Of a stretch of 64,000 bases of DNA, positions 13,096-62,029 are shown piece after piece. The notes under the pieces were generated by a model that worked only from the letters and a program-made list of their open reading frames with translations, made no database searches and was not told where the DNA came from. This DNA comes from Chrysomallon squamiferum (Eukaryota > Animalia > Mollusca), in the NCBI GenBank assembly GCA_012295275.1, contig CM022676.1:4030001-4094000 (forward strand), written 5' to 3'. Position 1 is the first letter of the stretch; every line of letters starts with the position of its first letter. The position numbers and the translations under genes are program-made.

Positions 13096-16000
13096 TCAGT
13101 GTGGAATGTGTCCCCTGCGAATAAACTTCATCATTTTTATTGTTTCTGTTCCTGTAAATTTGAATTCTTCTTTCAGGATGTGTTCATTCAAATCAGCGAG
13201 CACGCAGCCGTCTACGGATTCTTTCTTAAACGTGTCAATGTGTCTCCCCAACCTCAAAGCTTTCATCACTTCGCCAACCTCAGATATTGTTAAATCCGTC
13301 AAATTTCTCTTTTCAGCTTTTTCTTCCCTGTTTTTCTTAAAGACAGCCTTTCCTCTGACGTGATTATCTTTACTTTTGCTGGTGACGTAATCTTCTTTGC
13401 TAGTGATTTTCACGTCTCTCTCCAGGCTGCCTTTACTGACGTCAGAATGATTCCTATTTTTAGTTAAGACGTAACGATCACTAGTGACGTAATCAGCACG
13501 GTTACCTGTTGTGACGTAATCATCTTTTCTGCCTCCAGTGTAATCCTCGTTACCTCTTCTGACGTAACTAATCTCCTTTACGTAATCACAATCGCTGGTT
13601 CTGTTATTGTGAGTCGATGACGTTGCTTGATGTGAAAGGACAGGGTGGCGAGGTTGTAAGGGAGGGGGGACATCATCAGTTCTCTCTTTTTCGGGTGGCG
13701 ACGTTGAGGGTCTCAGCGGCCTTTTTCTATAAATAGGGTTTGGAAATAAGGTCAAAAACTCTTCTTGATCTGCCGCAGATGTGAGAGATCTGTCAGATTC
13801 TCGTGTCTCGAAAATATCGTCTCCTTGAGTCGTGTCCACATCCACTTGTTTGTACAGAGCAATATCTGAAAAAAAGAAATAATAAATAATACACACACAC
13901 AAACAAATAGAGACAGAAAAAACAACAACAAATAAACAAACAAACAAAGAAACAATAAATAAATAAATAGATAGATAGATAAACTACTATGTATTTTCTC
14001 ACTAAGTTTCTTACTTTCGTTTCCTACTTTCCCATCGAAACTTATACACTTGGCAGCCATTTCGATATCGCGAACAAACTGCTGATAAAGCTTTTGCGTC
14101 ATATCCTGTATTCCTGTTACCACAGACACCAGAACGTTCTGAAGACAGAGTGGAATCAGAATCGTGCGAGGTTCCAGAATTCCTGGAAATAAGATTTTAA
14201 TGAGATAACAGAATTTTTGCTTGATATCATACAACAGACTGTAAATAGATATTTTTTTTTATCACATATCATACAATAATTAGACAACAGACTGCAAATA
14301 GATATTAGAGTTTAACTGGATGTCAGATGGTAATTATATATCAGTCGTTAAGAAGATATACAATTTTATATCAGATATCAGACTGTAATTACATTCCTGA
14401 TCTTTACTATATATCAGATGGTAATTATATATCAGTCGTTAAGAAGATATACAATTTTATATCAGATATCAGACTGTAATTACATTCCTGATCTTTACTA
14501 TATATCAGATGTTAATCACATATTAGCTTTAAATTAAATAGCAGATTGACTCTCTCTCTCTCTCTCTCTCTCTCTCTCTCTCTCTCTCTCTCTCTCTCTC
14601 TCTCTCTCTCTCTCTCTCTCTCTCTCTCTCTCTCTCTCTCTCTCTCTCTCTCTCTGAAAAATACATAGATTAATGGACAGATAAGTTCACCAAAACATAG
14701 CCTATAATATACCTTGATAAATGCAGTTTGCTACGTAGTACTTTTCATCGTACATCTTAGAAACTGTTATTTTTCCAAATGATTTTACTCTGGTTTCAGT
14801 GTTACCCACATCAAATCTGCATTCATCTGACACAGCGAACTCAACCTGTACTGGCAGCGAGTGAGTGGACAAAATGTCTGACAATAGCTGACCTTGTCTA
14901 CCTGGTTAAATTAATAAGGATGACAATTCAATTAAAAGCCAGAGAAACCCGACAAGCCACCATAACAACAGTAATCATATTCATCATCATAACCATTATT
15001 GTGTGTGTGTGTGTCATTCTTCATTTGATGATGATAATAGTAAGATGATTATAATGACAACAATAACAATCATTATCATCATCACATCCCAGTTCAGTTT
15101 CTTCGTTTCTTTTCTGGTTTTTTGGTTTGTTTGTTTGTTTGTGTTTATGTTTAAGTATATTTTCTTATGTTTCATTACATTCAGTTATATTATTTTATTT
15201 TATATCAAATGACATATTGCATTACATTACATTATATTGTACGAAATTACTTTGCATTACAGTATAGTATACTACTGTATAATATAGTATAAAATAGCAT
15301 AGCATAATGTATAGAAAACCATAGTGTAATGTAGTATAGCATAGTTTAGTACAGTATGCCATAGCATAGTATATTGAAATATTATGGGATAGAATAGTAT
15401 GATATTGTATAGTATATACTGTGGCGGTATACTCACGTTTAATTCTGGCGGTACAGACACGGAAGGGTAAACGGTAGTTTAAGGGTATCGTGATGTTACG
15501 TCCAGAGCTATCTCTAGCTATCAGTCTTCTTTGTTTACAAACACTGTGTATTCGCATCACCTGTGTATAACAGACGGACAAATAAATAAATAAACAAAGA
15601 AATAAACAAAGAAATTAAAAAATAAAATAAAATAAAATAAAATAAAATAAAATAAAATAAAATAAAATAAAATAAAAAAATAAATATTAAAGCATAGACA
15701 AATAAGTAAAGAAATAAATAAAGCATATGCAGATTCAGACACATATCATTTATTTAATAAAACAAATAAAAAGAAACAACAAAATAATTTCTACATCTCC
15801 ATTCTTAATCCTAACAAAGTCAGACGTATTTCTTGACACTACTTTTCTTTCTTCCATCCCCTATAACTGTCCTCCCTCTTAACTATAACCGACCTGCCAC
15901 ACCCTATTACTTACCTGGCCCATCCCTATCGTGTCCATCTCTATGCCCCCGTCGTATCCTTGCGTTGCTATGACGATTTGGGGTAAATCGTCCTTGTACG

Positions 16001-16456
16001 CGTCATAAAAATCTCTCAGTGTAAAATTTTCTCCGCCATGTTGGAAAATGGCGTTCTCAATCTGAATCGAAAATAAAAATGAGTAATTAGAGTTAGACAT
16101 GATGATGACGATGATGGAAATGATAATGCAATGTCCATGATGATGATGATGACGTTGATATCATTATTAACGACGGTCGTGTGACAACTGATCGCAATAA
16201 TGATGTTGTTCAGACGTTCAAGTTGATGATGATGATGATATTGCAGGTTGTTAAATTATGATAACAACACTGAAACAACAACAGTGATTATACAGAGAAA
16301 GATGTAGAGGTAAAAATATTGTATTTGAATAACCATTCACAGATTTTTCAGATAAATTTAATCCCACAAACTCAACGTATTTAGAACTATTTATATTACT
16401 TTCAAATGCGGAATTCTGTGCCATTTTCCATGATAATACTTCCATTCTACTTCCAT
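13096..16456 (-). CDS. CABIT-PRR-SAM adaptor (GAREM/THEMIS-like), copy A, intact (~484 aa)
   Basis: Exons 16456-16400, 16061-15915, 15560-15437, 14901-14713, 14182-14015, 13865-13096 (57/147/124/189/168/770 nt). The N-terminal ..[41 protein letters not shown] resembles the GAREM CABIT pattern (LPQI..IHS..A..IPxxYxxxF). The C-terminal [44 protein letters not shown] is SAM-like. Confidence 0.88.
14323..14511. repeat. Perfect 91-bp tandem duplication in an intron of copy A
   Basis: TCAGATGGTAATTATATATCAGTCGTTAAGAAG...GATCTTTACTATATA occurs twice with period 91. Confidence 0.9.
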
Positions 16457-61113: not shown

Positions 61114-62029
61114 AATAACAACAGCAGAAGCAGTAGTTGTAGTAGTAGTAGTGTGCGTGTGCGTGTGGGTGGGTGGGTGTATTTGTGCGTATTCTGTATT
61201 ATTATTTTCTTCAGATATTGCTCTGTACAAACAAGTGGATGTGGACACGACTCAAGGAGACACTATTTACGAGACACTAGAACCTGACCGATTTTTCAGA
61301 TTTGCGAAAGATCAAGAAGAGTATTTGACCTCATCGAACTTTTCGCATTTCCACGGAGAAAATAAATCAAGAGAGATAACTCTATCCACTGAAAATGAAA
61401 TCGACCCGGCTCCTTTACTTCCAAAATCTATTTATAGAAAAAAGCCCATGAAACCACCTGTAGAGCCACCCGATAATGAGAGTGCTGATGATATCCCCCC
61501 TCCCTTACCACCCCGCAACTCTGTCCTGTCACGTGAAAGGACGTCATCGACATCCGATGGTAGAATTAGTGGTTGTGATTACGTCAGAAGAAGTAACGAG
61601 GATTACACTGTCGGTAGAAAAGATGATTACGTCACCGAAAGTAACAGTGCTGATTACGTCATTAGAGGTACTAGTGATGGTTACGGCACCGAAAATAGCA
61701 AAGACAGTGACGTGAAAATCAACAGCAAAGAAGATTACGTCATCAGTAACAGTGAAGATAATTACGTCAGAGGAAAGGCTGTTTTTAAGAAAATGACGGA
61801 AGACAAAGGTGGAGATAAAAACTTGACGGATTTAACAATCGCCGAGATTAGCGAAGTGATGAAAGCGTTGAGGATGCAGAGACACATTGACACGTTCAAA
61901 GAGGAAGGCGTAGACGGATTCCTGCTCGCTGATTTCAATGAACACATCCTGAAAGAAGAATTTAAATTTACAGCGACAGAAACACTGAAAATGATGAAGT
62001 TTATTCGCACAGGACACATTCCACACTGA
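57603..62029 (+). CDS. CABIT-PRR-SAM adaptor copy H (E-like), intact (~499 aa, or 511 aa with the microexon)
   Basis: Exons 57603-57659, optional 57986-58021, 58587-58733, 59164-59287, 59929-60117, 60447-60614, 61215-62029. Contains TIYETL, PPPLPPR, a DYV array and SAM. Confidence 0.9.

What the first reader, a model, noticed from the sequence alone, without database searches (positions are those of the whole stretch)
13096..62029. Expanded, diversifying cluster of eight THEMIS/GAREM-like CABIT-phosphotyrosine-SAM adaptors
Seen: eight paralogs with identical exon sizes (57/147/124/189/168 plus a variable last exon) in both orientations, including disrupted copies; the array probably continues past the window. 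Known: CABIT proteins (vertebrate THEMIS and GAREM, fly Serrano) are low-copy signalling regulators. GAREM has a CABIT-proline-rich-SAM layout and binds Grb2 and SHP2, and THEMIS tunes ITAM-based TCR signalling through Grb2 and SHP1. Inference: birth-and-death expansion with variable tyrosine tails resembles an innate-immune signalling family, and a SAM-multimerising adaptor repertoire of this kind may be undescribed in this lineage.
Basis: partly seen in the sequence, partly recalled or inferred. Interest (0 to 1): 0.85.

Follow-up and report, generated by a model that had tools for sequence, protein, structure and literature searches.

The report
Snail array of headless CABIT adaptors
This is a real tandem cluster of eight related gene copies (four intact), probably from a snail, encoding predicted signalling scaffold proteins related to human GAREM and THEMIS; their main domain likely lacks the middle 'head' part seen in the human proteins, similar multi-copy genes occur across molluscs, and an immune role is untested.

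Summary
The array is real: eight six-exon copies (57/147/124/189/168 + variable exon 6); four intact, three broken, one cut by an assembly gap. They form five lineages; the block holding copies 4-5 recurs as copies 7-8 (4.5% different), possibly a haplotype duplicate. RNA contigs show the exon 5-6 splice and a further paralog not in the window. The C-terminal SAM's best solved match is GAREM1's; the N-terminal domain is CABIT by transitive profile match. New: relatives match only Pfam CABIT positions ~1-68 and ~162-251, and a confident model shows only two barrels, so the SH3-like head with the namesake cysteine is likely missing. The closest relatives (55-60% identical) are from the vent snail Gigantopelta aegis, which has at least eight such genes; abalones, a limpet and bivalves carry more. 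So the family is not low-copy and the expansion is not unique; the scan earlier noted a sponge CABIT-SAM cluster. Exons 3-4 are homogenised even at silent sites, likely by gene conversion. No exon shows dN/dS above 1, THEMIS's Grb2 motif is absent, and nothing here tests immunity. Verdict: new variant of a known family, moderate interest.

The parts
13096..16456 (-). Copy 1, intact, 484 aa. Exons 16456-16400, 16061-15915, 15560-15437, 14901-14713, 14182-14015, 13865-13096. Two tyrosines shared by the other intact copies (positions 247, 265 in c3 numbering) are Phe here.
   Evidence: RNA contigs of X1-X3 match it
18657..23667 (-). Copy 2, broken: exon 2 indels/stops; exon 6 frameshift and 135-bp internal tandem duplication (19259-19533)
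26702..30134 (+). Copy 3, intact, 511 aa. Exons 26702-26758, 27340-27486, 27731-27854, 28403-28591, 28907-29074, 29284-30134
   Evidence: a 218-nt RNA contig with 0 differences
32195..35814 (+). Copy 4, intact, 486 aa. Exons 32195-32251, 32618-32764, 33326-33449, 33778-33966, 34374-34541, 35039-35814
38427..41425 (+). Copy 5, exons 1-5 intact; exon 6 not assembled (sequence ends at the gap)
41915..42114 (.). 200-N assembly gap, directly after the first instance of the duplicated block
44464..47786 (-). Copy 6, inverted near-duplicate of copy 3; exon-2 acceptor CG; +1 C in a homopolymer at about 45033 (may be an assembly error)
51228..54835 (+). Copy 7, 97% like copy 4; +1 base in exon 3 at about 52344
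57603..62029 (+). Copy 8, intact, 499 aa; 98% like copy 5. Exons 57603-57659, 58587-58733, 59164-59287, 59929-60117, 60447-60614, 61215-62029
30859..41914 (+). Duplicated block, first instance (copies 4-5 with spacers)
   Evidence: 291 mismatches in 6,469 non-repeat columns against the second instance
49855..61113 (+). Duplicated block, second instance (copies 7-8): segmental duplication or second haplotype
61817..62026 (+). SAM domain of copy 8 (last ~68 codons of exon 6 in every copy that has it); best solved match 2DKZ, LOC64762
   Evidence: E 3e-06; Pfam SAM only below cut-off on single exons
27340..29330 (+). Exons 2-5 and the start of exon 6 of copy 3: the two-barrel (likely headless) CABIT domain, about residues 20-245
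62030..64000 (+). 3' flank of copy 8 followed by sequence homologous to the upstream regions of other copies; a ninth copy probably starts just beyond the window

Best explanation
The window holds a transcribed tandem and inverted array of eight gene copies in five lineages, likely from a gastropod close to Gigantopelta, which encode predicted GAREM-type scaffolds: a CABIT domain likely reduced to its two-barrel core, a tyrosine- and proline-rich linker predicted to be disordered, and a C-terminal SAM domain. By analogy with GAREM (inferred, not tested) a tyrosine kinase would phosphorylate the acidic linker tyrosines, SH2 proteins such as SHP2 would dock there, the PxxPxR site (present in c3 and c8) would bind an SH3 adaptor such as Grb2, the CABIT core would supply the specific protein contact and the SAM domain would cluster or localise the complex. 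The array evolves by birth and death: local duplication and inversion in microsatellite-rich DNA, loss by frameshift, near-neutral indel turnover of the linker, and probable gene conversion that keeps exons 3-4 nearly identical. It is one species' instance of a family that is multi-copy across molluscs.
For: Shown: gene models. Exon 5-6 junction in RNA contigs of runs X2 and X3; contigs matching c1, c3 and c6-type sequence. SAM: 2DKZ is the top PDB sequence match for the c8 SAM (E 3e-06) and for the family profile (E 1.7e-12); LOC64762 = GAREM1 is recalled. CABIT: a profile of the window's N-terminal 240 residues hits 52 of the 150 SAM-selected proteins at E<1e-10; 13 of 51 scanned pass the Pfam CABIT cut-off and 23 of 51 list it at E<=0.01; a profile built from 12 of those 13 scores the four intact copies at E 1e-62 to 1e-66, best of 104 shuffled or reversed decoys E=1; ESM Atlas top three clusters for relative P0004 carry CABIT on 54-75% of members. 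Headless: Pfam 1-68 maps to P0004 residues 30-93 and Pfam 162-251 to 95-195, leaving no room for about 93 profile positions; profile 15-89 aligns to THEMIS 268-343 (weak, E 0.06-0.5), the N-terminal half of the core by Beyett et al. (core 267-344 + 458-544, head 345-457 with Cys413); AlphaFold model of P0004 1-247 (pLDDT 93, pTM 0.87) has two long strands, 54-69 and 139-156, and its best structural neighbours are FeoA 3e19, IdeR and ScaR over a discontinuous 14-180 range (Z 4.5-4.9), the proteins Beyett lists for the core, plus interdigitated double Tudors. The published cysteine motif (PMC9250082) is in 0 of 4 copies and 0 of 45 relatives; no Cys column exceeds 19 of 45. Evolution: window copies are one clade (100/100) inside a clade with four G. 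aegis genes (100/99); silent variation in exons 3-4 is 6 of 85 codons against 37 of 110 elsewhere (Fisher p 8e-06), while between species exons 3-4 are no more conserved than exon 5.
Against: The spliced window proteins were not scanned against Pfam or folded directly; single exons gave no CABIT hit, and the two nearest relatives score below the Pfam cut-off. No THEMIS chain appears in three fold searches, all Z are under 5 (background level), and SH3 domains and 3g1j, which Beyett matched to the head, also appear (Z 3.3-3.6). N-terminal-only queries did not find THEMIS in the PDB. In 3 proteins (P0040, P0152, P0086; two are one cluster) Pfam aligned the second barrel to the head instead, against 9 that aligned it to the C-terminal core, so which unit is missing is likely, not shown. 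PxRPxK is absent; PxxPxR is in 2 of 4 and an ITIM-like site in 2 of 4 intact copies. A pairwise conversion-tract test was not significant after 15 comparisons (lowest p 0.01).
Confidence: 0.62

Rival explanations
1. The array is an innate-immune or symbiont-control adaptor repertoire under diversifying selection: paralogs with different tyrosine tails set different signalling thresholds in haemocytes or symbiont-bearing tissue, and copy 1, whose two shared tyrosines are Phe, could act as a decoy.
For: Birth-and-death pattern; linkers differ in length (188-215 aa) and tyrosine number (9-13), ITIM-like and YxN sites in c3 and c4 only; linker tyrosine density of 8-12 per 169-196 aa is above the relatives' median of 2.7 per 100 aa; one relative joins this SAM type to a CARD (P0061); immune families are reported expanded in G. 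aegis (PMC7895826 passage); THEMIS proteins act in immune cells.
Against: No region has dN/dS above 1 (0.38-0.89, four copies, low power); the presumed specificity domain is homogenised rather than diversified; cytoplasmic scaffolds without a receptor part; GAREM1 is ubiquitous and Serrano acts in planar polarity; CABIT, GAREM and SAM domain are not mentioned in the main text of three vent-snail genome papers. The first Tyr-to-Phe site lies in the confidently folded end of the domain, so it may be structural.
Confidence: 0.22
2. Part of the array is an assembly artefact: block 30859-41914 and block 49855-61113 are two haplotypes of one region scaffolded in series, and some single-base breaks are sequencing errors, so there are six loci rather than eight. 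This can hold together with the best explanation.
For: The first block ends exactly at the 200-N gap, truncating copy 5; spacers are duplicated too; c5/c8 are identical in exons 1 and 5; the c6 frameshift is +1 in a C run and a c6-like RNA contig spans that place without a gap.
Against: Non-repeat divergence is 4.5% (291 of 6,469; 0.7-7.3% per kb), above the 1.38% genome-wide heterozygosity reported for one peltospirid snail (PMC7142155 passage; a reference value only); the neighbours on the left differ (c3 on +, c6 on -, with different 3' flanks), so the two sides are not simple alleles.
Confidence: 0.35
3. The N-terminal domain is CABIT-related but no longer works as a Grb2/SHP scaffold; the array is mostly neutral redundancy from a duplication-prone region, with one or two working genes.
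For: Three of eight copies are broken as assembled; linker and exon 1 near neutral; head, cysteine motif and PxRPxK missing; 35% of the window is tandem repeat.
Against: Exon 2, exon 5 and SAM are under purifying selection among the four intact copies (0.38, 0.45, 0.38); at least three copy types and one outside paralog are in RNA contigs; a PxxPxR site is kept in 36 of 45 relatives.
Confidence: 0.16

Closest known systems
GAREM1/GAREM2 (FAM59A/B), single-CABIT adaptors
   Same: One CABIT domain, Pro/Tyr-rich linker, C-terminal SAM (layout from PMC8086153 and PMC9250082 passages); SAM most like 2DKZ.
   Different: GAREM's CABIT spans about 344 residues and keeps the SH3-like head (Beyett); here about 225 residues, likely core only, no conserved cysteine; two genes in mammals against a tandem array here; orthology not tested.
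THEMIS/THEMIS2, tandem-CABIT T- and B-cell adaptors
   Same: CABIT-related N-terminal domain; weak profile match to the first core half of CABIT2.
   Different: Single domain, no head, no PxRPxK motif, has a SAM that THEMIS lacks; no evidence for SHP1 or antigen-receptor links.
Uncharacterised molluscan CABIT-SAM proteins (G. aegis LOC121376822, LOC121386781; Haliotis, Patella, Pomacea, Crassostrea, Mytilus, Mercenaria and others)
   Same: Same family: 55-60% identity in the N-terminal domain to G. aegis, 31-39% to abalone and mussel proteins; same short domain; also clustered and multi-copy.
   Different: The window's copies are their own recent clade, with a more tyrosine-rich linker and an extra 19-codon first exon. 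Database names are automatic ('uncharacterized', 'SAM domain-containing').
Drosophila Serrano (Sano)
   Same: Member of the same cnidarian-to-mammal family (PMC2776533 passage).
   Different: 778 aa, acts with Dishevelled in planar polarity; no sequence comparison was made here.

Membership tests
CABIT domain (Pfam PF12736) | Sequence homology to the CABIT profile | tested here: met
   Transitive: profile of 12 relatives that pass the Pfam cut-off scores the four intact copies at E<=5e-62, decoys E>=1; 18 of 18 N-terminal domains list CABIT at E<=0.1. Direct scan of single exons gave none; the spliced proteins were not scanned.
CABIT domain (Pfam PF12736) | Core of two small barrels sharing two long antiparallel strands | tested here: inconclusive
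   Model of relative P0004 has two long strands and FeoA/IdeR/ScaR and hybrid-Tudor neighbours, as published for the core, but Z<5 and no THEMIS chain was listed.
CABIT domain (Pfam PF12736) | Inserted SH3-like head subdomain (third barrel) | tested here: not met
   Only 2-5 residues separate the matches to Pfam 1-68 and 162-251; the domain holds two barrel units. Which unit is absent: 9 alignments say the head, 3 the last unit.
CABIT domain (Pfam PF12736) | Conserved cysteine motif (hydrophobic-X-C-X7-26-hydrophobic-X-L-P-hydrophobic-X3-G-X-F, as given in PMC9250082) | tested here: not met
   Strict motif in 0 of 4 copies and 0 of 45 relatives; a relaxed form in 4 of 4 copies but 7 of 45 relatives.
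GAREM-type adaptors | C-terminal SAM domain of the GAREM type | tested here: met
   2DKZ first by sequence and by Foldseek; tied among SAM folds at Z 10.2.
GAREM-type adaptors | Proline-rich Grb2-binding segment | tested here: inconclusive
   PxxPxR in c3 and c8, near-misses in c1 and c4; PxRPxK in none. Binding not tested.
GAREM-type adaptors | Tyrosine phosphorylation and SHP2 recruitment through an ITIM-like site | not testable with these tools
   An S-x-Y-x-x-V site in c3 and c4 only; phosphorylation cannot be tested.
GAREM-type adaptors | Orthology to vertebrate GAREM | not tested
   No GAREM or other three-barrel CABIT sequence was retrieved, so none is in the trees.
THEMIS | Two tandem CABIT domains, PxRPxK, no SAM | tested here: not met
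   One domain plus SAM; PxRPxK absent.
Diversifying immune multigene family | dN/dS above 1 in the binding region | tested here: not met
   0.38-0.89 by exon, pooled over six non-independent pairs of four copies; low power.
Diversifying immune multigene family | Expression in immune or barrier tissue, induced by challenge | not testable with these tools
   Three RNA runs of one study hold it, tissue not given, contigs only.

The most novel reading that the evidence does not exclude
Molluscs carry a large, repeatedly expanded, undescribed class of core-only CABIT-SAM adaptors that preserves the state before an SH3-like head was inserted to make the GAREM/THEMIS domain, the insertion Beyett et al. 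proposed from the THEMIS structure; in vent snails the class has amplified independently into repertoires in which gene conversion keeps one binding module fixed while phosphotyrosine tails, including a Tyr-to-Phe decoy, vary to tune immune or symbiont signalling.
Probability: 0.25. Interest if true: 0.78.

Novelty: new variant of a known kind. Interest (0 to 1): 0.5.

Why it matters
The job of the CABIT domain is still disputed, and the 2024-2026 structures divide it into a core and an apparently inserted head. A natural, stable-looking, head-less version gives a direct way to ask what the core does alone (SHP or Grb2 binding) and whether the head was gained or lost, by rooting a tree of two- and three-barrel domains. 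It also flags an automatically mislabelled signalling family that is multi-copy across molluscs. The array in this window by itself is an ordinary local gene expansion.

Tried and rejected
No whole genome is held, so no genome-wide count or read-depth test. Pfam on single exons: no CABIT, SAM below cut-off. Word-based homolog search with exon 4: nothing; ESM Atlas with exon 4: nothing. PDB sequence matches of exon 2 to designed kelch propellers and of exon 4 to a flagellin are short-motif chance hits, rejected. Word-based searches with alignments returned only 6 and 7 proteins, so they give no census. Full-length model searches were filled by the SAM. THEMIS was not listed in any fold search; whether the structure library holds it is unknown (library to April 2026, the cryo-EM paper is dated May 2026). 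N-terminal-only queries did not reach THEMIS. Profile comparison of the two barrel units with each other was weak (probability 3%). SAM-SAM pair prediction for copy 1 gave no answer (score 0.00), which is evidence neither way. Sawyer-type tract test not significant; per-exon trees too short to show incongruence. Contig depths were not used to rank genes or count copies; run X4 is of unrecorded kind. Splicing of exons 1-5 was not examined in RNA; only exon 6 and its junction with exon 5 were. Johnson et al. 2009, which defined the family, is not held. ITAM reading rejected: the two YxxL-like sites are 15 residues apart.
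Full report
OBSERVATION. The window is AT-rich animal DNA, 35% tandem repeat, with one 200-N gap at 41915-42114. Exon seeds taken from the window found eight copies of a six-exon gene between 13096 and 62029, three on the minus and five on the plus strand. Exact boundaries give 57/147/124/189/168 nt for exons 1-5 in 38 of 40 instances, with AG/GT ends except the exon-2 acceptor of copy 6 and the broken end of copy 2's exon 2. Copies 1, 3, 4 and 8 are intact (484, 511, 486, 499 aa). 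Copy 2 is broken in exons 2 and 6, copy 6 has a CG acceptor and +1 base in a C run, copy 7 has +1 base in exon 3, and copy 5 stops at the gap about 100 bp before exon 6. An acceptor lies three bases before each ATG, so an upstream exon exists and the start codon is provisional.

HOW MANY LOCI. Over exons 1-5, c4/c7, c5/c8 and c3/c6 are 97.1, 97.8 and 94.6% identical; all other pairs 86-92%. The block 30859-41914 recurs in the same orientation at 49855-61113, spacers included, with 291 mismatches in 6,469 non-repeat columns (4.5%). It ends at the gap, which is how an unpurged haplotype looks; but the divergence exceeds the 1.38% heterozygosity reported for one peltospirid (PMC7142155, passage; a yardstick only), and c3 and c6 differ in orientation and 3' flank. 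I put the haplotype reading at about 35%; the count is then six loci instead of eight. The last 2 kb repeat the c4-c5 spacer and the upstream elements of c1, c2 and c6, so a further copy probably begins just outside.

EXPRESSION. Four runs hold part of copy 3's exon 6, three on record as RNA from one study. Laid on that exon, contigs of X2 and X3 run off at the acceptor into sequence that matches the end of exon 5 with 2-3 mismatches in 30: the splice is real. Contigs in X1-X3 match copy 1 (16 differences from c3 over 29288-29403, as c1 has; loose ends 0-1 mismatch), one matches c3 exactly over 218 nt, others fit c6 (7 differences where c6 has 7), and one RNA loose end has no match in the window, indicating an outside paralog. 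Tissues are not given and contigs cannot rank expression.

DOMAINS. The last 68 residues are a SAM domain whose best solved match is 2DKZ, LOC64762 (E 3e-06; GAREM1 by recall). A profile of these SAMs found 448 proteins at E<=0.001, 150 listed. A profile of the window's N-terminal 240 residues hits 52 of those 150 at E<1e-10. Of 51 long ones scanned, 13 pass the Pfam CABIT cut-off and 23 list it at E<=0.01; a profile made from 12 of the 13 scores the four intact copies at E 1e-62 to 1e-66 against E>=1 for 104 decoys. The CABIT call is therefore sound but transitive; the spliced proteins themselves were not scanned or folded.

THE DOMAIN IS SHORT. THEMIS CABIT2 has a core (267-344 and 458-544) and an SH3-like head (345-457) holding the conserved Cys413; the authors speculate that the head was inserted, and GAREM is predicted to keep it (bioRxiv 2024.10.01.616165, parts 1-3 of 4 read; PMC13381594, passages and section 7; bioRxiv 2026.06.24.734275, passages and section 14). 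In the relatives, Pfam positions 1-68 map to P0004 residues 30-93 and positions 162-251 to 95-195; about 93 positions have no counterpart, and copy 3 aligns to P0004 without a gap over 241 residues. The family profile's positions 15-89 align weakly to THEMIS 268-343 (E 0.06-0.5). The model of P0004 1-247 (pLDDT 93) has two long strands and matches FeoA 3e19 (Z 4.9, rmsd 2.6, 68 aligned), IdeR (4.7) and ScaR (4.5) over a discontinuous range, the names Beyett gives for the core, and hybrid Tudor domains over 21-183 (Z up to 4.5). Against: these Z are background level, head-type neighbours (SH3s, 3g1j) also appear, THEMIS is not listed, N-terminal-only queries miss it, and for 3 proteins Pfam placed the second barrel on the head against 9 on the C-terminal core. 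Two barrels instead of three is well supported; that the head is the missing one is likely. [quoted passage not shown]

LINKER. 188-215 aa with 9-13 tyrosines, several in D/N/S-Y-V/D context; an ITIM-like site and a YxN in c3 and c4 only; PxxPxR in c3 and c8 and in 36 of 45 relatives; PxRPxK in none of the copies. The equivalent region of P0004 is low-confidence in the model. Copy 1 has Phe at two tyrosines shared by the other three copies and by both G. aegis relatives; the first column is Tyr in 12 of 18 relatives and lies in the folded end of the domain, so this may be a conservative structural change or a non-phosphorylatable decoy.

RELATIVES AND HISTORY. Of 30 relatives looked up, 23 carry a species name and all are molluscs. 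The nearest, 55-60% identical, are G. aegis genes, so the window is likely a related gastropod. G. aegis has at least eight genes: three on one 47.5-Mb contig, four on a 53.4-Mb contig, one on a small scaffold; Haliotis rubra has two near-adjacent loci. The window's copies form one clade (100/100) within a clade with four G. aegis genes (100/99), three of which are their own clade (21 rows, broken copies left out): parallel local expansions. ESM Atlas look-alike clusters are commonest in Chordata, Rotifera and Mollusca, and the scan noted a sponge CABIT-SAM cluster before (e1-6818823, not checked), so arrays of this kind are widespread.

SELECTION. Nei-Gojobori dN/dS among the four intact copies: exon 1 0.84, exon 2 0.38, exon 3 0.89, exon 4 0.60, exon 5 0.45, linker 0.88, SAM 0.38 (pooled, non-independent). 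dS is 0.05-0.09 in exons 3-4 against 0.25-0.40 elsewhere; silent variation 6 of 85 against 37 of 110 codons (p 8e-06). Between species exons 3-4 (55-68%) are no more conserved than exon 5 (53-65%). Gene conversion across the array is the simplest reading, though a pairwise tract test was not significant.

MECHANISM. Shown: gene structure, transcription, domain layout, duplication history. Inferred from GAREM (PMC8086153 passages): kinase-driven phosphorylation of the linker, SH2 and SH3 docking, SAM-based clustering. The immune reading rests on analogy only; Serrano works in planar polarity (PMC2776533 passages).

NOVELTY. Ten literature searches (listings only) showed no paper on invertebrate CABIT-SAM arrays or head-less CABIT; 'THEMIS + CABIT + mollusc' and 'CABIT + SAM domain + expanded' returned 0. 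Three vent-snail genome papers lack the terms in the main text; supplements of two were searched (10 of 10 and 12 of 13 files; one gene labelled 'Protein THEMIS'). The founding paper (Johnson et al. 2009) could not be read and may already cover short forms or expansions; bioRxiv supplements, which hold the GAREM comparison, were not seen.

Noticed in passing
window 4844-7467 (-) and 9975-12264 (+): Two divergently oriented paralogous multi-exon genes, 44-52% identical per exon, with no Pfam, NCBIfam or plasmid hit. From recall only, they resemble the C-terminal extension domain of animal-type alpha-amylases, apparently without the catalytic domain.
   Followed up: partly
window 13096-13865 (-), copy 1 exon 6: Two tyrosines shared by the other intact copies and by G. 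aegis relatives are both Phe in copy 1, which is present in RNA contigs of all three RNA runs.
   Followed up: partly
window exons 3-4 of all copies, e.g. 27731-28591: Silent sites are four to five times less variable than in other exons, even in the broken copy 2: exon-limited homogenisation.
   Followed up: yes
protein P0061: A 908-aa unnamed protein joins a CARD domain to three SAM domains of this type; P0006 (Pecten maximus) and P0007 carry tandem CABIT-SAM units.
   Followed up: no
window 11145-11539, 30922-31175, 49978-50354: A TAC/TAG-repeat-rich element from the neighbouring gene's intron recurs, inverted, at the left ends of both instances of the duplicated block; it may mark rearrangement breakpoints.
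   Followed up: no
window 23845-26453: The upstream regions of head-to-head copies 2 and 3 form an inverted repeat (74% over 529 bp).
   Followed up: no
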